DNA from: Candidatus Wildermuthbacteria bacterium
GTDB lineage: Bacteria; Patescibacteriota; Minisyncoccia; Minisyncoccales; PEYH01
DNA length: 64,000 nt
NCBI GenBank assembly: GCA_037445205.1
Contig: JBBIKX010000001.1
Coordinates: forward strand, 8,767 to 72,766
Direction of reading: 5' to 3'
Part shown: one piece after another, positions 2,773 to 62,859 of the stretch
Layout of the letters: each line of letters opens with the position of its first letter
Numbering within the stretch: the first letter of the stretch is position 1
Translations under genes and position numbers: made by a program
Notes under the pieces: model-generated
The model's input: the letters and a program-made list of their open reading frames with translations, nothing else
Database searches by the model: none
Told to the model about the DNA's origin: nothing

Positions 2773-2776
2773 ACAT

Positions 2777-3049
2777 ATGGATTTCAGCTTGATTAAAAGA
2801 ATACTGGCCAAAGAAAAAACAAAAATTGTCATCGTGGAAAACGGCGTACCCACAATGATTATTTCAAGCATTGAAGATTATCTTTCAGGAGAAGAGAAAA
2901 CCGCCAAAGAAAAAATCGGCATGGAAAAAATCGGCATGGAGGAAAAAAAAGAAAGCTTTTTATCCGCTCCCAAGAGAGAAGAAGATGTTTTTTTGCCCAA
3001 AAGCGGGGAATTTACCGAGGAGCTGACTATTGATGATTTGCCTCTTTAG
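2777..3049 (+). CDS. Small acidic hypothetical protein; N-terminus resembles Phd/YefM antitoxin fold (weak)
   Basis: 90 aa ORF between fusA and tuf; N-terminal KIVIVENGVPTMIISSIEDY pattern; acidic C-terminal tail; contains EKIGMEKIGME tandem duplication. Confidence 0.4.
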   Translation: MDFSLIKRILAKEKTKIVIVENGVPTMIISSIEDYLSGEEKTAKEKIGMEKIGMEEKKESFLSAPKREEDVFLPKSGEFTEELTIDDLPL

Positions 3050-3093
3050 TGCTATATTCTGTATGAGCGTCACTTGATGATTGATTTCTGTTA

Positions 3094-3172: not shown

Positions 3173-4372
3173 ATGGCAGAAAAAGAAAAATTTGAGCGCA
3201 CAAAACCGCACCTTAATGTAGGAACCATTGGGCATGTTGATCATGGAAAAACTACACTAACGGCTGCAATTTTAAAAGTCCTGAAACTTAAGGGTCTTAG
3301 AGCGTCTGAAAAAGACGTTGATCAAATTGACTCGGCGCCGGAAGAAAAAGCGAGAGGACTTACAATCAACATCACTCACGTTGAATATGAAAGCGACAAA
3401 AGGCATTACGCCCACATTGACTGTCCGGGGCACGCCGATTACATCAAAAATATGATTACAGGCGCAGCCCAGATGGATGGGGCTGTTCTTGTTGTTTCAG
3501 CGGTGGATGGCCCGATGCCTCAAACTCGCGAACACATACTTTTAGCAAGACAGGTGGGCGTTCCCGCAATCGTTGTATTCTTAAACAAATGCGATTCGGT
3601 GGATGATCCAGAAATGATTAATCTTGTGGAATCTGAGATAAGAGAGCTTTTGAAGAAATATAATTTCCCCGGAGATCAGACTCCCATTATCAGGGGATCT
3701 GCGCTTAAAGCCCTTGAGGCAAAATCTGCTGATGATGAATCTGCAAAGCCCATTCTTGAATTGGCAAAAGCACTTGATGAACACGTGCCTGAGCCGGTCA
3801 GAGAAAAAGACAAGCCATTTTTAATGGCCGTTGAAGATGTTTTCTCAATTGCGGGCAGAGGCACTGTTGCTACAGGAAGAGTTGAAAGGGGAATGGTAAA
3901 ATCCGGCGAGGAAATAGAAATAGTCGGGATCAAGCCCACAAGCAAAACAACGGTTGTGAGCATTGAGATGTTTAATAAAATCCTTGACGAAGGATTTGCC
4001 GGAGACAATGTTGGAATTCTTTTAAGGGGTCTTAAAAAGGAGGACATCGAGAGAGGGCAGGTTTTGGCAAAAACCGGCTCAATCACCCCTCATGCCGAAG
4101 TTGATGCAGAGGTTTATATTTTGACAAAAGAAGAGGGCGGAAGACACACGCCGTTTTTTGCCGGCTACAAGCCCCAATTTTACGCCCGAACAGCGGATAT
4201 TACCGGAGAGGTGACTCTTCCTCAGGGAACAGAAATGGTTATGCCCGGTGATACCGTCAATTTGAAAATTAAATTGATTGTGCCGGTGGCCATTGAAGAA
4301 AAACAAAGATTTGCCATCAGAGAAGGAGGAAAAACAGTGGGCGCGGGAGTAGTCACAAAAATAATCAATTAG
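3173..4372 (+). CDS. tuf: Elongation factor Tu
   Basis: 399 aa; [22 protein letters not shown] motifs. Confidence 0.97.
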
Positions 4373-5477: not shown

Positions 5478-6119
5478 ATGTTGACAGACGTTTACAATCA
5501 AAAAGGCGAAAAAACAGGGCAAGCGCAACTGCCCAAGGAGATTTTTGGAGTAAAATTCAGAGCTGATTTGGTGCATCAGGTGTTTTCTTCCATGGTTTCA
5601 AACAAAAGAAGGCCCATCGCTCACGCAAAAGACAGGGGAGAGGTGAGGGGCGGAGGGAAAAAGCCCTGGCGCCAGAAAGGAACGGGCAGGGCAAGACATG
5701 GTTCGATCAGGTCTCCTTTATGGAGAGGCGGCGGGGTTACTTTTGGTCCAAGAAACGAAAGAAATTTTAAAAAAAGCATACCTAAAAAAATGAAAAGGTC
5801 AGCGCTCTTTTCCGTTTTGTCAGCCAAATTAAAAGATAATGAAATTATTGTTTTAGATAATCTTTTCCTGAAAGAACCCAAAACAAAATTAATGGACGAA
5901 ATCCTTGATAATCTTAAAAAAGCCGGTTTAAAGCAAAAAAACTGCTTGATTATTCTTCCAAAAAAGGATAAAAATATAGGACTGGCAGCAAGGAATATCG
6001 CGAAAATAAAAACCGCCCAAATAAATAATTTTAACATTTTAGACATACTTTCGTTTAAATACCTGCTTTTTACAAAAGAAACCATCGGCGCGATGAAAGA
6101 AACATTGATAAAAGATTAA
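5478..6119 (+). CDS. rplD: 50S ribosomal protein L4
   Basis: 213 aa; operon position after L3. Confidence 0.93.
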   Translation: MLTDVYNQKGEKTGQAQLPKEIFGVKFRADLVHQVFSSMVSNKRRPIAHAKDRGEVRGGGKKPWRQKGTGRARHGSIRSPLWRGGGVTFGPRNERNFKKSIPKKMKRSALFSVLSAKLKDNEIIVLDNLFLKEPKTKLMDEILDNLKKAGLKQKNCLIILPKKDKNIGLAARNIAKIKTAQINNFNILDILSFKYLLFTKETIGAMKETLIKD

Positions 6120-11305: not shown

Positions 11306-11692
11306 ATGGATTCAATCGCAGAAATGCTAATTAGGATAAAAAACGCCCAATCCGCAGGGAAGCCGACGGTGGATGTTGATTATTCTTCCGTAAAATATCA
11401 AATAGCGAATATTCTTGTAAAGAAGGATTTTCTTGAGGCGGTGGAGCGGAAATTCAAAAAGCAAAAAAAGTTTTTAAGATTAATTTTAAAATATGTAGAC
11501 AAAGAGCCGAAAATGAGGGGAGTAAAAAGGATTTCCAAGCCGGGGAGAAGAGTTTATTTGCCGTCTAAAAAAATAAAATCTTCAAAAGGAGTTTTTAGCG
11601 TTGTTATTGTCTCTACCTCTCAGGGGATAATGTCTCACATAGACGCGCGAAAGAAGAATTTGGGAGGAGAAATTATTTGTGAAGTCTGGTAA
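11306..11692 (+). CDS. rpsH: 30S ribosomal protein S8
   Basis: 128 aa; operon position. Confidence 0.93.
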   Translation: MDSIAEMLIRIKNAQSAGKPTVDVDYSSVKYQIANILVKKDFLEAVERKFKKQKKFLRLILKYVDKEPKMRGVKRISKPGRRVYLPSKKIKSSKGVFSVVIVSTSQGIMSHIDARKKNLGGEIICEVW

Positions 11693-16461: not shown

Positions 16462-16839
16462 ATGAGAAGGATAACGCTTTTAGTAGGACTAGTTCCGCTT
16501 TCGCTCTGCACGGTTTTGGCGAGTCATTTCCTTGAGCTGCGCGGTTTCCATTACGAGCAAGCCGCTGTCTTATTTCTTCCTTTCTTAATATGGCTGACCT
16601 TATTGCGGCTTGTGGAAGGGTCAAGGGCTTGGATAGCTTGGATCGGATTTGGAACCGCCAGCGCATTGGGCGGTTTCGTTGTTTTTTCGGTGGTTCTGCA
16701 TCATCTTGCAGAGTGGAAAATAGGCCTTTGTCTCATCATGTTAGTTGCCTACTGTTTTGCCTGTGGGTTCGTTGGCCTGCTTGGTTACGATATCTGGAAG
16801 CTACAGCGCCACAATCGCGACAAGAAGAAAAAATCGTAA
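16462..16839 (+). CDS. GC-rich small membrane protein (about 4 TM), cassette A
   Basis: 125 aa from ATG 16462, 8 nt after AAGGAGG; GC far above flanks; hydrophobic. Confidence 0.6.
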   Translation: MRRITLLVGLVPLSLCTVLASHFLELRGFHYEQAAVLFLPFLIWLTLLRLVEGSRAWIAWIGFGTASALGGFVVFSVVLHHLAEWKIGLCLIMLVAYCFACGFVGLLGYDIWKLQRHNRDKKKKS

Positions 16840-38976: not shown

Positions 38977-39050
38977 AGCGGGGTGGACCAGTAGTAGGTC
39001 GCGGGTCTCATAAGCCCGAAGCGTTGGTGCAATTCCAGCCCCCGCTACCA
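38977..39050 (+). tRNA. tRNA-Met (anticodon CAT; could be initiator, elongator or Ile2-lysidine type) with encoded CCA
   Basis: Hand-folded cloverleaf: acceptor AGCGGGG/CCCCGCT, anticodon loop CTCATAA, ends ACCA. Confidence 0.85.
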
Positions 39051-39084
39051 GTTTAAAAATAAAAAATTTTAATTTTTCTCTGTG

Positions 39085-39156
39085 GCCGGTGTAGCTCAGT
39101 GGCAGAGCAAACGTTTCATAAGCGTTGGGTCGTTGGTTCAATTCCAACCACCGGCA
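39085..39156 (+). tRNA. tRNA-Met (anticodon CAT), second copy/isoacceptor, no encoded CCA
   Basis: Acceptor GCCGGTG/CACCGGC, anticodon loop TTCATAA, T-loop TTCAATT. Confidence 0.85.
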
Positions 39157-39175
39157 AAAATTGAGAATATATTAT

Positions 39176-39250
39176 GGACCCATGGTGTAGCCCGGTTAAC
39201 ACATCTCCCTGTCACGGAGAAGATCAGGGGTTCAAATCCCCTTGGGTCCG
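39176..39250 (+). tRNA. tRNA-Asp (anticodon GTC)
   Basis: Acceptor GGACCCA/TGGGTCC, anticodon loop CTGTCAC, T-arm AGGGG-TTCAAAT-CCCCT. Confidence 0.9.
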
Positions 39251-39253
39251 CAA
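39235..39253 (+). repeat. Direct repeat copy 1 (AATCCCCTTGGGTCCGCAA) = 3' end of tRNA-Asp; putative attL
   Basis: Identical 19-mer recurs at 40465-40483. Confidence 0.7.
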
Positions 39254-39305
39254 TACGAGATTTGTCAAAGATTCTGTTTCGCAATCAACGCGGAAGTGAC
39301 AATTT

Positions 39306-40373
39306 ATGAAAATTTCTGATTTAAATTTTAGTAATTTCAATAGACAAATTAAATTTTCAATGAAAGCAATACTAAGCGATTTTAAATATTTCTATTTATC
39401 GATTTTTTTCTTTGGAATTCTTTTGTTTTTCATTCCTGAAATTTGTAGCGCTAATTTCCTTATAGGAGGATTTTTTATGTATAGTTTCTCTTTGTTGGCG
39501 CCCGTTATTTTCACGGGCGTTTGGGCCATAGAAGCCTTAACTATCAAGAATAAATTAGGGGGGACGCCACAAAAAGCACTATTTACTGCTTTAGTGGTAA
39601 ATTTGGCCACCAGCCTATCGGGCTTTGTTTTGGTTAAAAAAAACTTCTTGGCGGAATACACCCTATATAACGAATCTCTTACATTAATGATTTTTTTCCT
39701 TCTATCTGTTTTTGTTGAAATGTTAATGTTGCATTTTTGCTATAGAGAAGAATCTTGGCATAAAGTAATTATTGCTAGCTTTTTAATGAATCTGAAATCT
39801 TACTTTTTTTTAGCGTTTTTCTTGATAGGAGATTTTACAATCATAGGCGGGGCTATTATTTTAGTTATTGTCGTCCCCTATTTTTTCACAAAAGCTTTTA
39901 GGATGTTAGCCCCGGACAGAGAGTTTTTAAAATTTTTTAAAATAAGATCAGGCATCTTAATTCATTTCCTTTCCATTGTTCTAATCGGTTTGGTGTTTAT
40001 AGGAACCATAAAGGCGATAGATAAAGCGTTTCTTAAGCAAAGAAGAGAGGTGATAAAAGAGCATGAGGTAATGTCTAACATGCTTCAGATAAGCTCCAAG
40101 GCAGAATTGATCTATGCATACAAAGGAAGTTATGAATCATTAAATTGCGACTATGACGAAGAAATAAAAAGTGCTTGCAAGAATATTGAAAAGAAGACAG
40201 GCGCCAGGCTCACTATTCATACATCTGAAAACAGATATTGCGCCTATATTAAATTAATTTATTCTGAAAAATGGTATTGCGCAGATAATATTTCTGGACT
40301 TATCCCTGGGAAAATTAATATTAATCCCTCTATTTTGGGGTATTGTGATGGTAAGACTTTTATTTGTCCATAA
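39306..40373 (+). CDS. Polytopic membrane protein with Cys-rich C-terminal extracytoplasmic domain (island 1 cargo)
   Basis: 355 aa; 6-8 TM then a about 100-aa domain with 8 Cys. Confidence 0.7.
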   Translation: MKISDLNFSNFNRQIKFSMKAILSDFKYFYLSIFFFGILLFFIPEICSANFLIGGFFMYSFSLLAPVIFTGVWAIEALTIKNKLGGTPQKALFTALVVNLATSLSGFVLVKKNFLAEYTLYNESLTLMIFFLLSVFVEMLMLHFCYREESWHKVIIASFLMNLKSYFFLAFFLIGDFTIIGGAIILVIVVPYFFTKAFRMLAPDREFLKFFKIRSGILIHFLSIVLIGLVFIGTIKAIDKAFLKQRREVIKEHEVMSNMLQISSKAELIYAYKGSYESLNCDYDEEIKSACKNIEKKTGARLTIHTSENRYCAYIKLIYSEKWYCADNISGLIPGKININPSILGYCDGKTFICP

Positions 40374-40464
40374 ATATTAGCTTATTTGTAAGAATTAGAT
40401 GTGTTGTCCACAATTTTTTAGAGTAAAAATAATTGATTAATTTTTCCATCGGTATCAGATTATT

Positions 40465-40483
40465 AATCCCCTTGGGTCCGCAA
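40465..40483 (+). repeat. Direct repeat copy 2 of tRNA-Asp 3' end; putative attR of island 1 / attL of island 2
   Basis: Perfect 19-nt match to 39235-39253; the GC-rich block starts immediately after. Confidence 0.7.
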
Positions 40484-40503
40484 CGATACAAATTTCTTAC
40501 CTT

Positions 40504-40531
40504 AAAGCCGCGCTCCAGCGTGGCTTTTTTT
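40504..40531 (+). terminator. Intrinsic terminator (AAAGCC GCGCT..AGCGT GGCTTT plus T7)
   Basis: GC-rich hairpin and TTTTTTT directly after the repeat. Confidence 0.55.
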
Positions 40532-40589
40532 GGTTGAAATTTTTTTTGATTCTGATAGATTGAAAAAATAACCAAAAGGAGGTGAGACA

Positions 40590-41588
40590 GTGTCTTGCGA
40601 TACAGCCGTTATCGTGAATGTGCAGGCGGGCGCGGGAATGACTCGCTGGAAGTTGGCGCATCTTATGCGCCAGTTAAACCGCATTCTTTCTGTGCCCAAG
40701 AGTTGTGTCTGGCTGACTCGGGAAACCGGCGAGAGCAGCGCCACATCCCTGGCATCTTTTGCCCAAAGCAGAGGGGCCAAAGCAGTGATTGTCTTTGGCG
40801 GAGACGGCACGGTTCATCAGGCAGTAAACGGCCTGAAACTGCCCGATCCTTCAATCTCTGTTGGCATTGTGCCCTGCGGTACGGCCAACGTGGTTGCTTC
40901 CTGCCTTGGAATGCCAAGAAATGTCAAAGCGGCGCTGGAAGTCATAAGGGCCGGAATGACAAGAAAGATCGATCTGGGAATCCTGGAGGGAGATGGCCTT
41001 CCAAGATACGCGGTTTCCACGCTAAGCGTGGGACTTGACGCGATGATAAACGAACTGGCGCATCGTGTTAAGCCCCTGTTTCGGAAATACCATCTGCCAT
41101 CCATCTTGGGCTACATTCCGCCTCTTCTTAGATACACTCTTAATGAAGTTCCGCTCTACGATGTAGCTGTCAAAAAGGATGGATTGGTTTTTTGCGAAAG
41201 GATATCCTTTCTGGCAGTAACAAACACTCCATGGTATGGAGGCGGATTGGTGGACAGAACTGCCAAGCTTGACGACGGGCTGTTTAACATGATATGCGCC
41301 AGAAAGATCAGGTCCCGCGATCTTCCCTGGTGGATGTTTCAGATGTGGCAGGGAAATCACATCTATTATCCCAAGGTTTTTCTGCCCTGCTCTTCGTTTT
41401 CAGGATTAAGCATAAGTTCTGACTTTCCCTTGCCCGCGCAGATTGACGGACAGATTCTGCCCGCCCGGAAGAACATCGCAATCTCTGTCGTTCCCCGCCT
41501 CCTGCAGGTTTTCGCACCTTTGCCCCAACCAGAAAGAACAAAGCATTCTGGTTGGGGTTGTTTTTTTGATATGTCCAGGTTCAGATAG
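40590..41588 (+). CDS. Lipid kinase of the YegS/BmrU/DgkB family (diacylglycerol-kinase catalytic domain)
   Basis: 332 aa, GTG start 8 nt after AGGAGGTG; VIVFGGDGTVHQAVNGL (GGDG) and VTNTPWYGGGL; about 57% GC. Confidence 0.8.
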   Translation: MSCDTAVIVNVQAGAGMTRWKLAHLMRQLNRILSVPKSCVWLTRETGESSATSLASFAQSRGAKAVIVFGGDGTVHQAVNGLKLPDPSISVGIVPCGTANVVASCLGMPRNVKAALEVIRAGMTRKIDLGILEGDGLPRYAVSTLSVGLDAMINELAHRVKPLFRKYHLPSILGYIPPLLRYTLNEVPLYDVAVKKDGLVFCERISFLAVTNTPWYGGGLVDRTAKLDDGLFNMICARKIRSRDLPWWMFQMWQGNHIYYPKVFLPCSSFSGLSISSDFPLPAQIDGQILPARKNIAISVVPRLLQVFAPLPQPERTKHSGWGCFFDMSRFR

Positions 41589-41647
41589 ATATTGACCAAA
41601 ATATTCTTTTATGATATAATTTGGATATCCTAAGGAGGTGATGCGTG

Positions 41648-41815
41648 ATGAAGGCGGGTATAGTGATTTTCCGGCATACACAAGTAGAAACGCTGCAGGC
41701 GACGGTTAACGCGTTTCTCAAGGTTCACGCTCCACATATGGAGAACCTTGAGCATCAGCTGGTAGTGACTCCAGACGGCACTATCGTCTTGACCCTGCTT
41801 TATCGGGCTAAGTAG
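41648..41815 (+). CDS. Small GC-rich hypothetical protein (55 aa)
   Basis: Manual translation MKAGIVIFRHTQVETLQATVNAFLKVHAPHMENLEHQLVVTPDGTIVLTLLYRAK; TAAGGAGGTG SD 6 nt upstream; below ORF-track cutoff. Confidence 0.5.
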   Translation: MKAGIVIFRHTQVETLQATVNAFLKVHAPHMENLEHQLVVTPDGTIVLTLLYRAK

Positions 41816-41837
41816 GGTTCGTAAGGAGGGAGGAACG

Positions 41838-42101
41838 ATGCGTAAGCTCTTTGCGGCGATTGTCGGACTCTACCGTCGGCTCTGGATGATTGAGCCCCGC
41901 CGTTTCAAACGGGGACAAATCATCCAGTTCGAAGACTGGCGCGATGGCATTAGAGTTGCCAAAGCCAGATACCTGGTTCTCGGCAATACACCCTCCGAGA
42001 AGAGGTACGTCCTGGAGGGTGTTGGGCCCGGCAACAAGGGGAGGCGCGAGCGCCTTCGCTTCCGCTGGGTTGACAAACACGCACATTTGGTGCGCGGCTG
42101 A
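41838..42101 (+). CDS. GC-rich hypothetical basic protein (87 aa)
   Basis: GTAAGGAGGGAGG SD; no known domain. Confidence 0.55.
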   Translation: MRKLFAAIVGLYRRLWMIEPRRFKRGQIIQFEDWRDGIRVAKARYLVLGNTPSEKRYVLEGVGPGNKGRRERLRFRWVDKHAHLVRG

Positions 42102-42111
42102 AATGCCTGTT

Positions 42112-42155
42112 CCGCCCGGGACTAAGGAGGAGTTCCGGGCGGTTGTTGTTTTTTG
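42112..42155 (+). terminator. Intrinsic terminator (CCGCCCGG/CCGGGCGG plus TTGTTGTTTTTTG)
   Basis: 8-bp GC stem, long loop, U-tract after the 87-aa ORF. Confidence 0.6.
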
Positions 42156-42204
42156 ATGAAGTTTCTGGTATCGTATCAAGTATCGCACATTGGGAGGTGG
42201 AACG

Positions 42205-42348
42205 GTGCACAAATGGGTAATCTTTGCGGTAGTGGTGATCCCAAGCATTCTCATCGGTTCCCTTATCTGCCTTTTCCAAGGAAAGGGCAGAAGAGTGTGG
42301 TCCTTCGCTAAGGGGAGAGTCTTTGCTTGGGCGGAAACGGATTGGTGA
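42205..42348 (+). CDS. Tiny hydrophobic membrane peptide (47 aa), GTG start
   Basis: VHKWVIFAVVVIPSILIGSLICLFQGKGRRVWSFAKGRVFAWAETDW; GGGAGGTGG SD 5 nt upstream; hairpin AACCGGC...GCCGGTT downstream. Confidence 0.4.
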   Translation: MHKWVIFAVVVIPSILIGSLICLFQGKGRRVWSFAKGRVFAWAETDW

Positions 42349-42352
42349 ACAC

Positions 42353-42369
42353 AATCCTCTTGGCACTTG
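42353..42369 (+). repeat. Degenerate third copy of the tRNA-Asp 3' repeat (AATCCTCTTGGCACTTG, 11/17 match) at the right edge of the GC-rich island
   Basis: Aligned by eye to AATCCCCTTGGGTCCGC; sits where GC-rich DNA reverts to AT-rich. Confidence 0.3.
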
Positions 42370-42439
42370 TTAACCGGCGCATCTTCTGATGGGCCGGTTC
42401 ATCTTTTAACAAAAAATGCTCCATTTTTTGATTTGATTT

Positions 42440-43519
42440 TTGTTTGTTTTTGAATTAGAATTAATATATAAAATGGATTTAAAAAGCATTAAAAAGAAAG
42501 CAAAAAAGGAGATTGAATCGGCAAAAGATTCTGTTGCGCTAAAGCATATTTTTCAAGATTTTTTCGGCAAAAAGGGCGAGATTGCCGTCATTTTAAGCTC
42601 TCTTAAAAATCTTCCCCAAAAAGAAAGAAAGGACAAGGGAAAAATTATAAATGAAGTAAAAAAAGAGGTTCTGGAAATGATTGCAAAAAAAGAAAATAAT
42701 TTGAAAAAAATTGAGGCGGCTTTGGACGCAAAAGAGGAGTGGATTGATATAAGCTTTCCCTCAAAAAAAATTCCTCTGGGACATCTTCACCCCCTTACCC
42801 AAGCCAGAAGAAAAACAGAGGAAATTTTTGAAAAACTTGGATTTTCTGTGATTGAAGGACCCCAGATAGAAACAGAGTGGTATAATTTTGACGCCCTAAA
42901 CATTCCCAAAGATCATCCCGCGCGGGACAGGTGGGACACTTTTTGGCTCAGGGAGTCAGAAAGTCAAAAGTCAAAGGTCAAAAGTCAAAGGTTATTGTTA
43001 AGAACCCACACAAGTCCGGTTCAAATCCGCTATATGGAAAAAAACAATCCTCCCTTGCGGATTATTGTTCCAGGCAGAATATTCAGATACGAGGCGACAG
43101 ACGCTTCTCATGAAATAAACTTTTACCAGCTGGAAGGATTAATGGTTGATTCAAAAGTAACCCTTGCCGACTTTAAAGGAGTGATGGAAAAATTTTTCCA
43201 GATGTTTTTTGGCGATGAGGCCAAGATCCGGCTAAGGCCCAGCTATTTTCCCTTTACCGAACCGAGCGTTGAAATTGATATTAGCTGCCGGATATGCAAA
43301 CAAGAGGGATGCAGCGCTTGCGGCCGGAAGGGCTGGGTTGAAATAGCGGGCGCAGGCATGGTTCACCCAAATGTTTTTAAAGCAGCCAACCTTAACCCTA
43401 AAAATTGGCAGGGATTTGCGTTTGGAATAGGTCTTGATAGGTTGGCTATGATGAAATACAGGATTAATGATATAAGATTGTTCTATGGGGGAGATCTGCG
43501 GTTTCTTGAGCAATTTTAA
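42440..43519 (+). CDS. pheS: Phenylalanyl-tRNA synthetase alpha subunit
   Basis: 359 aa; class II motifs; internal ESQKSKVKSQ insert encoded by a short tandem repeat. Confidence 0.93.
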   Translation: MFVFELELIYKMDLKSIKKKAKKEIESAKDSVALKHIFQDFFGKKGEIAVILSSLKNLPQKERKDKGKIINEVKKEVLEMIAKKENNLKKIEAALDAKEEWIDISFPSKKIPLGHLHPLTQARRKTEEIFEKLGFSVIEGPQIETEWYNFDALNIPKDHPARDRWDTFWLRESESQKSKVKSQRLLLRTHTSPVQIRYMEKNNPPLRIIVPGRIFRYEATDASHEINFYQLEGLMVDSKVTLADFKGVMEKFFQMFFGDEAKIRLRPSYFPFTEPSVEIDISCRICKQEGCSACGRKGWVEIAGAGMVHPNVFKAANLNPKNWQGFAFGIGLDRLAMMKYRINDIRLFYGGDLRFLEQF

Positions 43520-43528
43520 TTTAACATA

Positions 43529-45595
43529 ATGATATTTTCGTATAACTGGATACAGTCATTTTTTACTGAAAAACTGCCCAAGCCTCAAGCATTGGCAGAG
43601 CTTTTGGAGCTTCACAGCTTTGAAGTAAAAGAGACAAAAAAAATCGGGAGAGATTTTTCGCTTGATATAGATATAATGCCGAACAGGCCCGACTGTTTTT
43701 CTCATTTGGGCATTGCAAGAGAATGTTCTGCCATTCTTGGATTAAAAACCAAGAATAATCAGCCAAAAATAGTTTCAGAATTTTCGTTTAAAAATCTCAA
43801 AAAGAAATCTAATCTGATTTCCGTGGAAATTAAAGATCAAAACGATTGTTTTAGATATACGGGGGCGTTTGTCGGGGGCATTAGTGTTGGTTTTTCTCCG
43901 AAATGGATGCAGCAAAGACTTTCCGTTTGCAATATTCAGCCGATTAACGGCATAGTTGATGTGGCGAACTACACAATGCTTGAAACGGGCCAGCCCATAC
44001 ATATTTTTGATTATGATAAAATCGCGGGCAAAAAAATTGTCGTAAGACGCGCCCGAAAAAACGAGAAAATTTCCGCTCTTGATGGGAAAGAATATAGCCT
44101 CGATCAGGATATTTTGGTAATTTCCGATGAAAAACAACCTTTGGCGATAGCGGGAATTAAAGGCGGAAATATCGCAGCAATTGACGAAAAAACAAAAAAC
44201 ATCTTTATTGAATCCGCGACTTTTGACCCTTTGGTTATAAGAAAGGCGTCTTATAAGCTGAAATTGAAAACAGATGCTTCTTTGAGATTTGAGCACGGGC
44301 TTGATTACAATATGACGGAATCGGCGATCAATAAAGCGATATCTTTTGTAAAAAAAACTTCGTCCAAGGATGCTAAAATTTTCAAAATAGATATTTTTGA
44401 GAAGTGTCCGCCCAAAAAAATTATAAAACTTGATTTTAACTTTGCAGAAAAACTCTTGGGCGTAAAAATTTCTCCAAAAAATACAGAGAACATATTAAAA
44501 ACGCTTGGAATAAAAGTTTTTAAAAAAACGAACAGCACTTTTGATTTAGAGATTCCCTTTGAAAGGGGCGATCTCTGCCTGCCCTCCGACATCGCGGAAG
44601 AAATTATAAGAATTTACGGATTAGAAAGAATAAAACCCACTTTGCCCCTTGGAGTTTTAGTCCCTCCCCAAAAAAACGACGAACTTTTTTGGGAAAACCA
44701 GGTTAAAAATTCTTTGAAAGAAATGAATTTCTTTGAAATTTACAATTATTCTTTCATCAAAAAAAACGATGGAAAAAATTATTTTTCTCTTGTTGAGCTT
44801 GAAAATCCGGCAAGCGAACAATTCCAATATCTCAGGCCAACGCTTTTAACGGGGCTTATAGAAAATTTAAAAATCAACACTCCAAATTACAAGGAAATAA
44901 AAATTTTTGAGCTGGAAAAAGTTTTCCAAAAATCAATCAGCGGAGAAATTTTTGAAAAGAAAATGTTGTCTGGCCTGATTTGGGAAAAAGGGGCAAAAAA
45001 GGGGAGATTGGAAAACGAATTCGCCCATATCAAGGGAATTTTAGACACGCTTTTGAATAATTTGGGGATAAGCGATTATTATTTTAACGAATACAAACCA
45101 AATCCTTCGGAGATGAAATTATCATTTTGGGATAAAAACCGCGTAGCAGAAATTTCTCTTATGAGCGGGAAAAAAATTGGATTTCTGGGAGCGATTTCTT
45201 TGGATATTCTTGGGGGCTATAAAATTGAGGAACCGGTTATGGCTTTTGACATAGATTTTGAAAAGCTTTGGACGGAGTGCAGCGAAGAGTGCGAATATCG
45301 TCCTGCCTCAAATTATCCCTGCGCTATACGCGATATTGCGGTTTTAGTTCCAAGAGAAACAAAAATAGGCGAGGTTTTAAATGCAATACAGAAAGCCGGC
45401 GGAGAAAAGATAAGAGATGTGGATTTGTTTGATTTCTACGAGGGGTCTCAAATTCCCCAAGGAAAGAAGAATCTTGCATTCCATATCATATTTCAATCAG
45501 ACGATAAAACATTAAGCGGCAAGGAAGTTGATTCATTGCATAAAAAAATAATCGGTTTTCTTGAGAAAAAAGAAGGATGGGCGGTGAGAAAATAA
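43529..45595 (+). CDS. pheT: Phenylalanyl-tRNA synthetase beta subunit (compact)
   Basis: 688 aa; B3/B4 and B5 domains; follows pheS. Confidence 0.93.
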   Translation: MIFSYNWIQSFFTEKLPKPQALAELLELHSFEVKETKKIGRDFSLDIDIMPNRPDCFSHLGIARECSAILGLKTKNNQPKIVSEFSFKNLKKKSNLISVEIKDQNDCFRYTGAFVGGISVGFSPKWMQQRLSVCNIQPINGIVDVANYTMLETGQPIHIFDYDKIAGKKIVVRRARKNEKISALDGKEYSLDQDILVISDEKQPLAIAGIKGGNIAAIDEKTKNIFIESATFDPLVIRKASYKLKLKTDASLRFEHGLDYNMTESAINKAISFVKKTSSKDAKIFKIDIFEKCPPKKIIKLDFNFAEKLLGVKISPKNTENILKTLGIKVFKKTNSTFDLEIPFERGDLCLPSDIAEEIIRIYGLERIKPTLPLGVLVPPQKNDELFWENQVKNSLKEMNFFEIYNYSFIKKNDGKNYFSLVELENPASEQFQYLRPTLLTGLIENLKINTPNYKEIKIFELEKVFQKSISGEIFEKKMLSGLIWEKGAKKGRLENEFAHIKGILDTLLNNLGISDYYFNEYKPNPSEMKLSFWDKNRVAEISLMSGKKIGFLGAISLDILGGYKIEEPVMAFDIDFEKLWTECSEECEYRPASNYPCAIRDIAVLVPRETKIGEVLNAIQKAGGEKIRDVDLFDFYEGSQIPQGKKNLAFHIIFQSDDKTLSGKEVDSLHKKIIGFLEKKEGWAVRK

Positions 45596-55024: not shown

Positions 55025-55135
55025 TATATAATACTTAAAATCCAGAATAAGGAGGTGGTCGCCGGGATACAGTCCAAAGAGGGCGAGGGGCGTTTTCGGA
55101 AGCAAAACCGGATCTTTCTTGCGAAAGGAGCATCG

Positions 55136-55333
55136 ATGCCAGCAGTAAATCTTGTTAACGTGGCGAGGTCATTGCCGGACGAAGAGGCGGAGAGGCTTTT
55201 GCTCATCGAGCAAAGCAATCCTGATTGCCTCAGGGCGCTTTTTGCGGTCGTTCTGAGCGCCGGAACGCTGGAAAAAGCTGTTCCTCTGATCCAACGAGTT
55301 CTTGCTGGCGCACCCTTGTTTCCGGGCGGATGA
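55136..55333 (+). CDS. GC-rich small hypothetical protein (65 aa), cassette C
   Basis: MPAVNLVNVARSLPDEEAERLLLIEQSNP...; AAAGGAG SD 7 nt upstream; second AAGGAGGTGG at 55050; shares locus with the miaA 3' end on the opposite strand. Confidence 0.45.
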   Translation: MPAVNLVNVARSLPDEEAERLLLIEQSNPDCLRALFAVVLSAGTLEKAVPLIQRVLAGAPLFPGG

Positions 55334-56389: not shown

Positions 56390-56683
56390 ATGTCGTATTA
56401 TTTAGCAATAATGTTTATGTTGCTAAGCGCAGGCTTTGCAAGTGCGGGGTTTAGGGTGATCCGTTATGCCCTTCGAGGAAAGCTGACAGGCACTATGCTT
56501 GATAGAGGCATGATACTCGGTACTGTCATCGTGCTTGTTGGAGTGGGGCTCGCCACGATTCCCATCATCTTCCAGAGCGGGATAAGATGGTGGTGTCTTG
56601 CGCTGGCGCTTGTGGAGGCAGTGGTCTGTATTGGGCTCTGGATGCTGCATGTCTTCTCGTCTGCGTCAATGGATTCACCCTAA
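56390..56683 (+). CDS. GC-rich small membrane protein (3 TM), cassette B
   Basis: 97 aa; strong SD; about 50% GC; opposite orientation between miaB and miaA. Confidence 0.6.
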   Translation: MSYYLAIMFMLLSAGFASAGFRVIRYALRGKLTGTMLDRGMILGTVIVLVGVGLATIPIIFQSGIRWWCLALALVEAVVCIGLWMLHVFSSASMDSP

Positions 56684-61983: not shown

Positions 61984-62859
61984 TTATGCTGGTTTATAGA
62001 CACGGTTTACCAGCACTTGGCGGGCAAACGTCACCCTCCATGTCGGGCCTACGAATCCGACTTCCCGGAGCAGTTGTTCCCATTGCGGAATTGCGAGGAA
62101 GGTGTATGTTCCTTCTTTTCCCTTTCTTTGTATTTCAAGGGCGTGACGAAGTATGCTTGTGCCCTGAAGAATTCGGCTAAAATCCCGATTTCTTATGTAG
62201 GGCAGAGGATTGAGCATGTCAGGAAGAGAAGCGACAAACACCCATTGGAAGTGAACGTTTTGTCTGGGAGTAGACCAGACGATATGTCCTCCGGGCTTGA
62301 GCACCCTATGCATCTCTCTGAAAACTTCCCTCATGGCCCTTATGCCTTTTTCGCTTCGAAAGTCAGTTGCATAGGGGATAACTAAATTTGCGATAATTCC
62401 ATCAAAGTGGTTATCGTCGAAGGGAAGTTCTTCGCCAAGATGAGCGAAAACAAGATGCATGGGCAACGTGGGGTGAAGAGATTGCGTTTTCCGCGCCGGA
62501 TCAAGAACTATATCCAGACCAACTACCAATTTGATAGTTCTGCCGGATTTGTTCCATGCCAAGAGAGCCATCTTGGCGGGTCCGCAGCCTACATCCAGCC
62601 AAACTTCGTTAGCTTTGGGCTGGATTAATCCGGCGACTGTCGTTGTAAGGTTGTGGTAGGGTCTTGCCTTTTCCAGGTTTTTGTAAATCCTTGCGTAATC
62701 CCTCCAAAACGCCAACTCTTGTCCCCAAGAGCGGATCCTTCCTCTTGTGAAGGGCGAAAGCCCGTTCTCATTTGCTTCCAGCCACTCTTCTATGCTCTCC
62801 GTGCTTAATCCTTCTCCAAAGCACGGCCCAAGGATCTCTGATATGCTTTTGGTTTTCAT
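61984..62859 (-). CDS. GC-rich class I SAM-dependent methyltransferase (small-molecule/UbiE-like rather than DNA MTase)
   Basis: 291 aa; LDVGCGPAKMA motif I; no (D/N)PP(Y/F); own TTGACA-17-TATAAA promoter and AAGGAGGTAAGGA SD upstream. Confidence 0.8.
   Translation of the reverse strand: MKTKSISEILGPCFGEGLSTESIEEWLEANENGLSPFTRGRIRSWGQELAFWRDYARIYKNLEKARPYHNLTTTVAGLIQPKANEVWLDVGCGPAKMALLAWNKSGRTIKLVVGLDIVLDPARKTQSLHPTLPMHLVFAHLGEELPFDDNHFDGIIANLVIPYATDFRSEKGIRAMREVFREMHRVLKPGGHIVWSTPRQNVHFQWVFVASLPDMLNPLPYIRNRDFSRILQGTSILRHALEIQRKGKEGTYTFLAIPQWEQLLREVGFVGPTWRVTFARQVLVNRVYKPA

What the first reader, a model, noticed from the sequence alone, without database searches (positions are those of the whole stretch)
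40484..42352. GC-rich (~55-58%) foreign island encoding a YegS/DgkB-type lipid kinase plus three tiny ORFs, all with strong AGGAGG Shine-Dalgarno sites
The block's base composition, codon use (GC3-rich), GTG starts and canonical AGGAGGTG ribosome-binding sites all differ from the surrounding AT-rich, SD-less CPR genes. It has its own GC-rich terminators (40504-40531 and 42112-42155). Its cargo is a lipid/diacylglycerol-type kinase followed by a 55-aa protein, an 87-aa basic protein and a 47-aa membrane peptide of no recognisable family. The organisation, kinase-small-small-terminator-membrane peptide, looks like a compact acquired operon. It could be an uncharacterised membrane-lipid-modifying or signalling module, perhaps taken from a high-GC host or phage.
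Basis: partly seen in the sequence, partly recalled or inferred. Interest (0 to 1): 0.72.

Follow-up and report, generated by a model that had tools for sequence, protein, structure and literature searches.

The report
Old GC-rich lipid-kinase block in Parcubacteria
The GC-rich stretch is real, but it is not a fresh import: it is a lipid-kinase gene plus small orphan genes that a small group of ultra-small (CPR) bacteria has carried at this spot since before they diverged.

Summary
Window 40484-42352 is 50.8% GC against 38.7% for the window. No equally long stretch elsewhere exceeds 44.0%. It holds a DgkB/YegS-type lipid kinase and three small ORFs, all with strong Shine-Dalgarno sites.

The reading as a recently acquired operon from a high-GC host or phage does not hold.
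- The kinase sits at the same place (tRNA-Met/Met/Asp, kinase, pheST) in three related Parcubacteria contigs.
- It diverges at synonymous sites like its housekeeping neighbours.
- Its nearest homologues (33-36% identity) are in AT-rich Parcubacteria, three of the four directly upstream of pheS.
- No donor outside CPR was found.

The block is three transcription units, not one operon. The first terminator belongs to the tRNA operon. The 19-nt tRNA-Asp repeat ending at 40483 bounds a different, AT-rich 1.2-kb insertion upstream.

Only the kinase and the 47-aa membrane peptide are conserved in relatives. The 55-aa and 87-aa proteins are orphans.

The tRNA-Asp to pheS gap is a variable slot across the group.

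Excess GC falls from +13 points here to +6 in relatives. That fits an ancient transfer that is slowly ameliorating, but selection is not excluded. Every strong-SD gene in the window is GC-rich.

It is a new member of a known kind, of moderate interest.

The parts
39176..39251 (+). tRNA-Asp(GTC), last gene of the tRNA-Met/tRNA-Met/tRNA-Asp cluster that anchors the locus
   Evidence: ARAGORN and Rfam. The same cluster precedes pheS in many related genomes.
39235..39253 (+). Direct repeat copy 1 (AATCCCCTTGGGTCCGCAA), the 3' end of tRNA-Asp
   Evidence: Exact 19-nt repeat. There are two copies in the window; 0.03 are expected by chance.
39254..40464 (+). AT-rich insertion (about 32% GC) carrying a 355-aa (or 298-aa) multi-pass membrane ORF at 39306-40373. 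It is not part of the GC-rich block.
   Evidence: Bounded by the 19-nt repeats. Absent from L002 and L004, where the kinase starts about 130 nt after tRNA-Asp. A 64% homologue in L175 lies next to a large serine recombinase and a tRNA-Asp.
40465..40483 (+). Direct repeat copy 2 (att-like remnant of the tRNA-Asp 3' end)
40504..40527 (+).
   Evidence: Hairpin of -18.5 kcal/mol, z = -4.1, followed by a U-tract. Relatives have an equivalent hairpin plus T-run right after tRNA-Asp.
40534..40561 (+). Putative kinase promoter (TTGAAA-16-TAGATT with TG). Conservation with the 72%-identical relative L167 starts at 40528.
   Evidence: Consensus scan. blastn of L167 and L168 against the window starts at 40528 and 40526.
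40576..40585 (+). Shine-Dalgarno site AAGGAGGTGA of the kinase
   Evidence: Sequence. SD-like sequences are kept in L002, L003, L004, L167 and L169.
40590..41588 (+). Soluble DgkB/YegS-type lipid kinase, 332 aa, GTG start, 51.6% GC
   Evidence: PF00781 plus PF19279. Best solved relative is S. aureus DgkB 2qv7, E = 4e-19. Orthologues P0001-P0005. Purifying selection is like pheS and pheT.
41522..41567 (+). Terminator T1 of the kinase unit. It lies inside the last 22 codons of the kinase ORF.
   Evidence: Hairpin of -22.5 kcal/mol, z = -4.1, plus a U-tract. Conserved in L167, where the stop codon precedes it.
41592..41620 (+). Near-consensus promoter (TTGACC-17-TATAAT, extended -10 TG) of the middle unit
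   Evidence: 11 of 12 matches, the best in the region. Conserved in L168 and recognisable in L002.
41648..41815 (+). 55-aa orphan protein (56 aa if it starts at GTG 41645), SD AAGGAGGTGA at 41632-41641
   Evidence: AlphaFold2 single-sequence model with pLDDT 95 and a beta-alpha-beta-beta fold. No homologue among 1.84 billion representatives. Weak fold similarity to Cse60-like phage proteins.
41838..42101 (+). 87-aa basic orphan protein (22 K+R, 8 D+E), SD AAGGAGGGAGG at 41823-41833
   Evidence: Only itself was found in 5.8 billion proteins. Model pLDDT 57. No significant similarity to ORFs at the same position in relatives.
42112..42152 (+). Terminator T2 of the middle unit. Its loop carries AAGGAGGA.
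   Evidence: 12-bp stem, -23.7 kcal/mol.
42146..42174 (+). Putative promoter of the peptide unit (TTGTTT-17-TATCGT), placed by comparison with TTGTGT-17-TATTAT in L002 and L003
   Evidence: Read from the sequences. Weak match; inferred.
42205..42348 (+). 47-aa single-pass membrane peptide (MHKW...IP...LFQG+GR+.W), GTG start, SD GGGAGGTG at 42192-42199
   Evidence: Conserved in length and motifs in L002 (11592-11735) and L003 (1441-1584). Hydropathy 2.85 over residues 5-23.
42372..42407 (+). Terminator T3, the right edge of the GC-rich block
   Evidence: Hairpin of -19.8 kcal/mol, z = -4.9. Contigs of 97%-identical strains start at 42401 and 42424.
42433..43519 (+). pheS promoter (TTGATT-17-TAGAAT) and pheS (ATG 42473), the native right flank
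   Evidence: The promoter region is conserved in relatives.

Best explanation
The block is an old, lineage-specific accessory gene set. It sits in a variable slot between the tRNA-Met/Met/Asp cluster and pheST in a small clade of Parcubacteria.

It has three separate transcription units:
1. a soluble DgkB/YegS-type lipid kinase;
2. two orphan small proteins of 55 and 87 aa, driven by a near-consensus promoter;
3. a 47-aa single-pass membrane peptide.

Shown:
- The kinase was already at this site before the window's lineage split from L002, L003 and L004.
- It has been inherited vertically since then.
- It is under purifying selection.

Inferred:
- The kinase docks on the membrane by itself, through a Trp/Phe-rich helix (DLPWWMFQMWQG).
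- It uses ATP to phosphorylate diacylglycerol or a similar lipid. That would feed salvaged lipid back into phospholipid synthesis in an organism thought unable to make lipids from scratch.
- The 47-aa peptide is a membrane partner or modulator. The two orphans are fast-evolving, possibly strain-specific add-ons.
- The GC-rich composition is the fading signature of an ancient transfer from a GC-richer donor.
- The strong SD sites are kept because GC-rich mRNAs in this otherwise SD-poor, AT-rich genome need them to start translation.
For: Synteny. The order tRNA cluster, kinase, pheS, pheT is seen in L002, L003 and L004.

Co-divergence. Four-fold-site identity of the kinase against housekeeping genes is 0.46 against 0.37-0.42 for W-L002. 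It is 0.61 against 0.66-0.69 for L002-L003, and 0.50 against 0.42-0.49 for L002-L004. Amino-acid distances rank the pairs the same way.

Purifying selection. Against a 96%-identical strain the kinase has 25 synonymous and 15 non-synonymous codon changes, similar to pheS and pheT.

Family. Pfam domains and DgkB 2qv7 at E = 4e-19, with GGDGT, PxGTxN and DDG conserved.

Membrane docking. In the alignment, DgkB T237 and S240 correspond to F250 and W253 here. Hydrophobic substitutions at T237 and S240 let S. aureus DgkB bind membranes without its recruiter (PMC11962490).

Unit structure. Promoters, SD sites and four hairpin terminators.

Peptide conservation.

Variable slot. The tRNA-Asp to pheS gap ranges from 86 nt to 3.2 kb with unrelated cargo in GTDB relatives.

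Amelioration series. Kinase GC3 minus native GC3 is about +0.17 (W), +0.15 (L002), +0.11 (L003) and +0.04 (L004). Relative to pheS and pheT, the kinase shows an excess of GC-to-AT changes in L002, L003 and most strongly L004.

SD and GC. All 7 strong-SD gene starts in the window are in genes of 0.48-0.59 GC.
Against: - No donor was found. The closest homologues are AT-rich Parcubacteria kinases: directly upstream of pheS in L085, L086 and L169, about 2.6 kb upstream in L077. That fits an even older residency, and simple neutral amelioration should by then be complete.
- My back-of-envelope amelioration estimate needs the transfer to fall shortly before the W/L002 split.
- GC at four-fold sites hardly differs from native genes. 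The excess lies in two-fold codons and in amino-acid make-up. Selection could produce that.
- The polarised substitution counts are biased by parsimony and composition.
- The window's kinase has DGQ where relatives and DgkB have DGE.
- Its ORF runs through its own terminator.
- Substrate, expression and any link between the kinase and the small proteins are untested.
- L004 keeps the kinase without any of the small genes.
Confidence: 0.55

Rival explanations
1. This is the first reader's view: a recently acquired foreign island, taken as one compact operon from a high-GC host or a phage and inserted next to tRNA-Asp.
For: Composition, codon use and SD sites are atypical. The block lies downstream of a tRNA gene that carries an att-like repeat. 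PHROG 8777 matches the kinase at E = 6e-20, so some phages carry such kinases.
Against: - Orthologues sit at the same site in L002, L003 and L004, with synonymous divergence equal to the flanking genes.
- The nearest homologues are CPR; all others are 31% identity or less.
- Viral contigs gave nothing above 26% identity.
- There is no integrase and there are no flanking repeats around the GC block.
- The att-like repeat bounds the AT-rich insertion instead.
- The block is three transcription units.
Confidence: 0.05
2. The block is native. Its GC-rich, SD-led make-up is held in place by selection, for example on expression level, mRNA structure or protein composition. It would belong to a genome-wide class of SD-dependent GC-rich genes rather than being a relic of transfer.
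For: - Every strong-SD gene start in the window is GC-rich: 16462-16839, 56390-56683, 61984-62859 and the four block genes. The same holds in L002, L085, L006 and L008.
- The SD is conserved across kinase orthologues.
- The nearest kinase relatives are CPR, mostly at the same locus.
- The GC excess is mainly in two-fold codons (AAG, AAC, TAC, ATC) and in amino-acid composition, not at four-fold sites.
Against: - L004, L085, L086 and L169 kinases are close to native composition, so high GC is not needed for function.
- L004 shows a strong net loss of GC in the kinase only (48 GC-to-AT against 20 AT-to-GC; pheS 16 against 23).
- The graded series from W through L002 and L003 to L004 looks like decay, not maintenance.
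Confidence: 0.25
3. The part downstream of the kinase (41590-42400) is a strain-variable selfish or conflict cassette, not a partner of the kinase. The 55-aa and 87-aa pair would be a toxin-antitoxin-like or phage-derived pair. The 47-aa hydrophobic peptide would be a type I toxin-like membrane peptide.
For: - The two-gene unit pairs a small neutral protein with a basic one behind a strong promoter.
- Both proteins are orphans.
- The contig of a 96%-identical strain diverges exactly at the SD of the 55-aa ORF. Contigs of 97% relatives begin at the right edge of the block.
- The 55-aa fold resembles Cse60-like phage proteins at E about 1e-3.
- The peptide has its own promoter and terminator.
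Against: - There was no PADLOC, Pfam or NCBIfam match.
- The scan found no antisense promoter over the peptide gene.
- The peptide is kept next to the kinase in L002 and L003 across deep divergence.
- The divergent tail in L168 is exactly 31 nt, which I recall as the assembler's k-mer length (not checked here). It may be a graph artefact.
Confidence: 0.1
4. The small ORFs are not genes. The GC-rich stretch before pheS would be a structured RNA or a pheST leader.
For: Relatives L014 and L016 carry a promoter, about 250 nt of GC-rich sequence with no SD-led ORF, and a terminator at the same position before pheS. GC-rich islands in AT-rich genomes are often RNA genes (general knowledge).
Against: - Rfam finds nothing in the block, even at E up to 1.
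- Each ORF has a strong, correctly spaced SD.
- The codon-position GC pattern is typical of coding sequence.
- The 55-aa ORF folds with pLDDT 95.
- The peptide keeps its frame, length and motifs in three lineages.
- A separate pheS promoter follows T3.
Confidence: 0.04
5. The block is an assembly chimera or contaminant sequence joined into a CPR contig.
For: The composition changes abruptly at the edges. Related assemblies break at the right edge.
Against: A Logan assembly (L001) is 99.99% identical across both junctions. Three other samples show the same arrangement with diverged sequence.
Confidence: 0.01

Closest known systems
DgkB, the soluble diacylglycerol kinase of Gram-positive bacteria (S. 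aureus, PDB 2qv7)
   Same: Two-domain DAGK_cat plus YegS_C architecture. It is the best solved match (E = 4e-19, residues 40-310). The GGDGT, PxGTxN and DDG motifs are kept.
   Different: - Identity is low; only motif-level conservation was confirmed.
- It falls below all NCBIfam equivalog cut-offs.
- The window's copy has DGQ instead of DGE.
- The helix matching DgkB alpha7 is Trp/Phe-rich, like the recruiter-independent state described in PMC11962490.
- The host is a CPR bacterium; I know of no lipoteichoic-acid DAG cycle in CPR, and none was looked for here. The substrate is untested.
YegS/Rv2252/BmrU lipid kinase subfamily (TIGR00147)
   Same: Full-length match, residues 6-310. One relative is annotated with this name by JGI.
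   Different: It scores 98.6 bits against a cut-off of 118.65. The clade (P0001-P0006, L085, L086, L077) is a separate, small Parcubacteria branch.
tRNA-linked genomic islands and integration hotspots
   Same: It lies in a slot after a tRNA gene whose content differs between related genomes. An att-like 19-nt tRNA-Asp repeat is present.
   Different: The repeat flanks the neighbouring AT-rich insertion, not the GC block. There is no integrase in the window. The GC block is old and vertically inherited.
GdpS-DgkB membrane recruitment in Staphylococcaceae (PMC11962490)
   Same: A soluble DAG kinase must reach the membrane. Here membrane-anchored small proteins are encoded next to the kinase.
   Different: There is no GGDEF protein. 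The hydrophobic alpha7-like helix predicts docking without a partner. No interaction was tested.
Cse60-like small proteins of Firmicutes and their phages
   Same: The 55-aa protein has the same predicted beta-alpha-beta-beta fold (TM 0.85 to a phage 'sporulation protein', E about 1e-3).

Membership tests
DAGK_cat / YegS-DgkB soluble lipid kinases | N-terminal DAGK catalytic domain (PF00781) above the gathering score | tested here: met
   87.9 bits against 23.6, residues 6-130
DAGK_cat / YegS-DgkB soluble lipid kinases | C-terminal beta-sandwich domain (PF19279 YegS_C) | tested here: met
   42.4 bits against 27, residues 144-308
DAGK_cat / YegS-DgkB soluble lipid kinases | Conserved nucleotide and catalytic motifs: GGDGT, PxGTxN, DDG, DGE | tested here: inconclusive
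   GGDGT, PCGTAN and LDDG are invariant in the clade. The last motif is DGQ in the window and P0001 but DGE in P0002-P0006 and DgkB. The residue roles are from my recollection of Miller et al. 2008, which I could not read here.
DAGK_cat / YegS-DgkB soluble lipid kinases | ATP-dependent phosphorylation of diacylglycerol or a related lipid | not testable with these tools
   Needs an enzyme assay or complementation.
TIGR00147 YegS/Rv2252/BmrU subfamily and NCBIfam equivalogs (DgkB, YegS, MamU) | Score above the curated whole-protein cut-off | tested here: not met
   TIGR00147 scores 98.6 against 118.65. All equivalogs are far below cut-off, for example PRK13057 at 104 against 274.
Recently acquired genomic island | Atypical base composition and codon use | tested here: met
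Recently acquired genomic island | Absent from the same site in related genomes, or diverging differently from the flanks | tested here: not met
   The kinase is present at the same site in L002, L003 and L004, with synonymous divergence equal to the flanks.
Recently acquired genomic island | Integrase or recombinase and flanking direct repeats around the island | tested here: not met
   No recombinase ORF lies in 39000-44000. The only att-like repeat pair (39235-39253 and 40465-40483) brackets the AT-rich insertion.
Recently acquired genomic island | An identifiable donor lineage | tested here: not met
   The best non-clade hits are 31% identity or less over full length. The nearest are AT-rich Parcubacteria. 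There is no close viral hit.
Single operon | One promoter and one terminator for all genes | tested here: not met
   Strong hairpin terminators follow the kinase, the 87-aa ORF and the peptide. A near-consensus promoter lies at 41592-41620. No transcript data are available.
Type I toxin-antitoxin (for the 47-aa peptide) | Small hydrophobic peptide plus an overlapping or adjacent antisense RNA | tested here: inconclusive
   The peptide feature is met. The scan found no minus-strand promoter in 42150-42400. There was no Rfam match.
Known anti-phage defence systems (PADLOC) | A match of any block protein to a defence-system model | tested here: not met
   The only hit is a chance-level ThsA hit for the 47-aa peptide, E = 0.0034.

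The most novel reading that the evidence does not exclude
The GC-rich, SD-led make-up would be actively maintained rather than a fossil. The kinase, its conserved 47-aa membrane peptide and the fast-evolving small proteins behind a conserved consensus promoter would form a Parcubacteria-specific module for salvaging or remodelling host lipid. That module would belong to a genome-wide class of GC-rich, SD-dependent cassette genes. Such genes are seen at 16.5, 55.1, 56.4 and 62 kb in this window and upstream of pheS in relatives. They would use a different mode of translation initiation from the SD-less AT-rich core genome.
Probability: 0.12. Interest if true: 0.6.

Novelty: new member of a known kind. 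Interest (0 to 1): 0.35.

Why it matters
CPR bacteria are thought to depend on other cells for membrane lipids. A conserved, selected soluble lipid kinase with a built-in membrane-docking helix is therefore a concrete candidate for a lipid-salvage step, and it can be tested.

The locus also gives a method lesson. A sharp GC island beside a tRNA gene looked like a fresh import. It turned out to be old and vertically inherited, while the truly inserted piece is the AT-rich segment next to it.

The tight link between strong SD sites and GC-rich genes in an SD-poor genome could help to sort gene classes in CPR genomes, if it holds more widely. None of this is a new kind of system.

Tried and rejected
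- **Known RNA families.** Rfam gathering on the whole window and E up to 1 on 39200-42600 found only tRNAs. There is no T-box or leader. Relatives gave the same result.
- **Defence and phage libraries.** PADLOC gave nothing meaningful. PHROGs matched only the kinase, to an unnamed family.
- **Viral contigs.** Searches with the kinase profile, the 87-aa protein and the 355-aa protein found no close relatives.
- **JGI metagenome scan with the kinase profile.** Nothing exceeded 40% identity.
- **Homology among the small ORFs at the same position** (W 87 aa, L002 126/114 aa, L085 154 aa, L006 129 aa, L008 94 aa). Only L006 and L008 are related. All other pairs are at shuffle level. I dropped my early impression of a shared motif.
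- **HMM of the 47-aa peptide against all loci.** It found only W, L002 and L003.
- **Direct repeats around the GC block.** Only T-rich terminator and promoter look-alikes turned up.
- **Fold searches.** The fold search of the 55-aa model gave generic hits. The 87-aa model was too poor to search. The afdb50 library was unavailable.
- **Polarised substitution counts.** They are suggestive only, because the outgroups differ in GC.
- **The 31-nt divergent tail of L168.** It was found nowhere else.
- **Literature.** Miller et al. 2008 could not be read.
Full report

Yes. Window 40484-42352 is 50.8% GC against 38.7% for the whole window. Equally long stretches elsewhere average 38.3% (sd 2.3) and never exceed 44.0%. 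300-nt windows reach 59%.

The steep rise begins at about 40575, at the kinase ribosome-binding site, not at 40484. It ends at about 42400.

The four ORFs are there:
- a 332-aa kinase (40590-41588, GTG start);
- a 55/56-aa ORF (41648 or 41645 to 41815);
- an 87-aa ORF (41838-42101);
- a 47-aa hydrophobic peptide (42205-42348, GTG start).

Each is preceded by an AAGGAGGT/GGGAGGTG-type Shine-Dalgarno site.

Codon use is atypical. The block has 274 GC-ending codons against 195 expected from the per-amino-acid usage of 51 native ORFs (z = 7.5). The kinase alone has the highest z of all long ORFs. Amino-acid make-up also differs: Lys 5.2% against 11.1%, Glu 3.3% against 7.3%, Arg 8.3% against 4.8%, Trp 2.7% against 0.9%.

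**2. Anatomy**

The block is not one operon. Four stable hairpins, each followed by a U-tract, divide the region:
- T0, 40504-40527, -18.5 kcal/mol;
- T1, 41522-41558, -22.5 kcal/mol;
- T2, 42112-42142, -23.7 kcal/mol;
- T3, 42372-42399, -19.8 kcal/mol.

A near-consensus promoter (TTGACC-17-TATAAT with an extended -10) lies at 41592-41620, between T1 and the 55-aa ORF. Weaker promoter-like sites precede the kinase (40534-40561) and the peptide.

The units are therefore the kinase, then the 55-aa plus 87-aa pair, then the 47-aa peptide. A separate pheS promoter follows.

T0 is not part of the block. Relatives have the same hairpin and T-run directly after their tRNA-Asp, so T0 terminates the tRNA operon.

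**3. The tRNA-Asp repeat belongs to something else**

The last 19 nt of tRNA-Asp (39235-39253) recur exactly at 40465-40483. The chance expectation is 0.03 copies. The 1.23 kb between the copies is AT-rich, with the ORF at 32% GC. It carries a 355-aa multi-pass membrane ORF.

L002 and L004 lack this segment. Their kinase starts about 130 nt after tRNA-Asp.

A 64%-identical homologue of the membrane protein, in contig L175, lies beside a 517-aa large serine recombinase that abuts a tRNA-Asp.

So the recent insertion at this locus is the AT-rich piece. It is probably a recombinase-less remnant of an element that targets tRNA-Asp.

**4. What the kinase is**

It matches the DAGK catalytic domain (87.9 bits) and the YegS C-terminal domain (42.4 bits), both above Pfam's gathering scores. 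The best solved relative is S. aureus DgkB (2qv7, E = 4e-19, residues 40-310).

It falls below every NCBIfam cut-off, including the YegS/Rv2252/BmrU subfamily (98.6 against 118.65). It is therefore a divergent member of the superfamily.

GGDGT, PCGTAN and LDDG are invariant in the clade. The last motif reads DGQ in the window and its 95% relative, but DGE in the other relatives and in DgkB.

A 2025 study showed that soluble DgkB must dock on the membrane through helix alpha7. Hydrophobic substitutions at T237 or S240 remove the need for the recruiter protein GdpS (PMC11962490). In the alignment those two positions correspond to F250 and W253, within DLPWWMFQMWQG. I therefore infer that this kinase docks on its own.

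Against a 96%-identical strain the kinase shows 25 synonymous and 15 non-synonymous codon changes. That is similar to pheS (15 and 10) and pheT (26 and 26). The gene is therefore under selection, not decaying.

**5. Is it foreign?**

A search of 5.8 billion proteins found only a handful of close relatives: 95%, 72%, 54-56% and 36% identity. Everything else is 31% or less over full length.

The 54-56% relatives lie on Parcubacteria contigs in the same order: gatCA, a hypothetical gene, tRNA-Met/Met/Asp, kinase, pheS, pheT, gyrB.

Kinase identities track those of housekeeping genes:
- W against the others: 54-56% (pheS 61-62%, pheT 45%, gatA 67-69%);
- L002 against L003: 77% (pheS 84%, pheT 80%).

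More tellingly, identity at four-fold degenerate sites of conserved residues is the same for the kinase and its neighbours in every pair. For example, W-L002 is 0.46 against 0.37-0.42, and L002-L003 is 0.61 against 0.66-0.69, with a random expectation of 0.25. This shows that the kinase has co-diverged with the chromosome since the common ancestor of these lineages.

The next-nearest kinases (33-36% identity: L085/L028, L086, L169, L077) are also in AT-rich Parcubacteria. Three of them lie directly upstream of pheS. In a neighbour-joining tree they group with the window's clade. Bootstrap support is 54 for the wider group and 100 for the clade itself.

No Actinobacteria, Chloroflexi or phage donor appears.

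**6. The slot**

A pheS search of GTDB species representatives places the window among Nealsonbacteria-like Parcubacteria, with a best pheS identity of 66%.

The tRNA-Met/Met/Asp to pheS arrangement is widespread. The gap after tRNA-Asp ranges from 86 nt to 3.2 kb. By eye its cargo looks unrelated from genome to genome: phosphoribosyltransferase-like, NUDIX-like and hydrolase-like ORFs, and a likely tyrosine recombinase. Only L028 and L077 among 80 representatives have a kinase there.

In a pheS plus pheT tree, W groups with L002, L003, L016, L006, L008 and L085. L006, L008, L016, L085 and L014 (not in the tree) all have a GC-rich block ending about 100 nt before pheS; W and L002 have the peptide gene at that position. 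The content of these blocks differs and is not detectably homologous, apart from L006 with L008.

**7. The small genes**

The 47-aa peptide is conserved in length, start and motifs (MHKW, IP, LFQG+GR+.W) in L002 and L003. It is absent from L004. Between L002 and L003 it has 7 synonymous and 15 non-synonymous codon changes and no indel. The constraint is therefore mainly on hydrophobic character.

The 87-aa protein matches only itself in 5.8 billion sequences, and its model is poor (pLDDT 57).

The 55-aa protein has no true homologue among 1.84 billion representatives. Even so, it folds with pLDDT 95 as a beta-alpha-beta-beta unit. The fold resembles Cse60-like phage proteins weakly (E about 1e-3) and many unrelated ferredoxin-like halves.

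A contig from a 96%-identical strain (L168) follows the window from 40526 to 41635 and then differs, exactly where the SD of the 55-aa ORF begins. Contigs of two 97%-identical strains begin at 42401 and 42424. This hints that the middle unit varies between strains. However, the divergent tail is 31 nt, which I recall as the assembler's k-mer length (I did not check this). I leave the point open.

**8. Why is it GC-rich?**

The excess shrinks across relatives. Kinase GC against locus GC is 51.6/38.7 (W), 50.1/37.9 (L002), 45.3/35.0 (L003) and 39.2/33.1 (L004). Kinase GC3 is 0.55, 0.49, 0.41 and 0.29. The more distant L085, L086 and L169 kinases are close to native composition.

Polarised substitution counts show relatively more GC-to-AT change in the kinase than in pheS or pheT. 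The effect is clearest in L004: 48 GC-to-AT against 20 AT-to-GC, compared with 16 against 23 in pheS and 27 against 45 in pheT. These counts are biased by outgroup composition.

My rough estimate is that about 0.6-0.75 substitutions per synonymous site per lineage have accumulated since the W/L002 split. On that estimate the present excess fits a gene of about 60-65% GC origin acquired not long before the split. That is inference, not a fitted model.

Two points count against a simple fossil:
- GC at four-fold sites barely differs from native genes.
- The nearest relatives are CPR kinases, mostly upstream of pheS.

I therefore rate ancient transfer with incomplete amelioration as the best explanation, but only at moderate confidence. 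Selection-maintained composition is the main rival.

**9. A wider pattern**

All seven gene starts in the window with a strong SD core, correct spacing and a nearby upstream stop codon belong to genes of 48-59% GC. They are the four block genes, a 125-aa membrane ORF (16462-16839), a 97-aa membrane ORF (56390-56683) and a methyltransferase (61984-62859, minus strand). A further GC-rich small ORF with an SD and a terminator lies at 55055-55333. The same link appears in L002, L085, L006 and L008.

A plausible reason is as follows. AT-rich native mRNAs start translation without an SD because their leaders are unstructured. GC-rich mRNAs would need an SD. This is inference.

**10. Verdict**

The block is a new, divergent member of the soluble DgkB/YegS lipid-kinase family, with lineage-specific small genes. 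It is old and vertically inherited, and it lies in a variable slot after tRNA-Asp.

A diacylglycerol kinase has already been noted as a variable accessory gene in Parcubacteria genomes (PMC11188291). Interest is moderate. The kinase is a testable lipid-salvage candidate, and the link between SD sites and GC content deserves a genome-wide check.

Noticed in passing
window 39235-39253 and 40465-40483; ORF 39306-40373: An exact 19-nt duplication of the tRNA-Asp 3' end brackets a 1.23-kb AT-rich segment. The segment carries a 355-aa multi-pass membrane ORF and is absent from L002 and L004. No recombinase is present in the window.
   Followed up: yes
L175 1-160 and 1205-1365; recombinase 1452-3005; tRNA-Asp 2994-3070 (-): The 64% homologue of that membrane protein is flanked by inverted repeats of about 155 nt, near-perfect by eye. 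The repeats include the gene's own 5' end. It lies next to a large serine recombinase that abuts tRNA-Asp. This could be an invertible segment, an element end or an assembly palindrome.
   Followed up: partly
window 16462-16839 (+), 55055-55333 (+), 56390-56683 (+), 61984-62859 (-): There are other GC-rich genes (0.48-0.56) with strong AAGGAGGT sites in an otherwise SD-poor 38.7% GC window. Two are small membrane ORFs, one is a small ORF with its own terminator, and one is a methyltransferase. Every strong-SD gene start in the window is GC-rich.
   Followed up: partly
window 41519-41588: The kinase ORF runs through its own terminator hairpin and U-tract and stops 19 nt later. In the 72% relative L167 a TAA precedes the hairpin. 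Transcripts ending at T1 would lack a stop codon.
   Followed up: no
window 42120-42130; L002 about 11520-11545; L003 about 1370-1395: The loop of terminator T2 contains AAGGAGGA. The same TTAAGGAGGAATCTTGGGCGGGA stretch is conserved between L002 and L003 upstream of the peptide promoter. Its function is unknown.
   Followed up: no
L168 1112-1142 against window 41636; L165 and L166 starts against window 42401 and 42424: Assemblies of 96-97% identical strains diverge or break exactly at the edges of the two small-gene units (41636-42400). This is either strain variation or a graph artefact.
   Followed up: partly
L016 about 5700-5940; L014 about 3370-3640: Directly before pheS these relatives have a strong promoter, then about 250 nt of 50-55% GC sequence without an SD-led ORF, then a terminator. 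There was no Rfam match. This may be an undescribed small RNA.
   Followed up: partly
L002 9450-9713; L085 3413-3671: An 87-aa GIY-YIG nuclease ORF lies between the two tRNA-Met genes in L002. A group I intron (Rfam, 78.9 bits) lies just upstream of a tRNA in the same cluster in L085.
   Followed up: no
loci L005-L084, gap between tRNA-Asp and pheS: The gap ranges from 86 nt to 3.2 kb. By eye its cargo includes phosphoribosyltransferase-like, NUDIX-like and alpha/beta-hydrolase-like ORFs, and in L034 a likely tyrosine recombinase. None of these was checked with Pfam. The gap is a hotspot for accessory genes in this group.
   Followed up: partly
whole window, native ORFs: In native genes the GC-ending fraction is about 0.36-0.64 at four-fold codon families. 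It is only about 0.2-0.3 for Lys, Asn, Tyr, Ile, Asp, Glu and Phe. Synonymous usage is therefore not set by one uniform mutational bias.
   Followed up: no
L169 1093-1727: Between the 36%-identical kinase and pheS there are about 630 nt of GC-rich sequence. It contains a tRNA-like T-arm motif (GGTTCGAGTCC). I did not analyse it.
   Followed up: no
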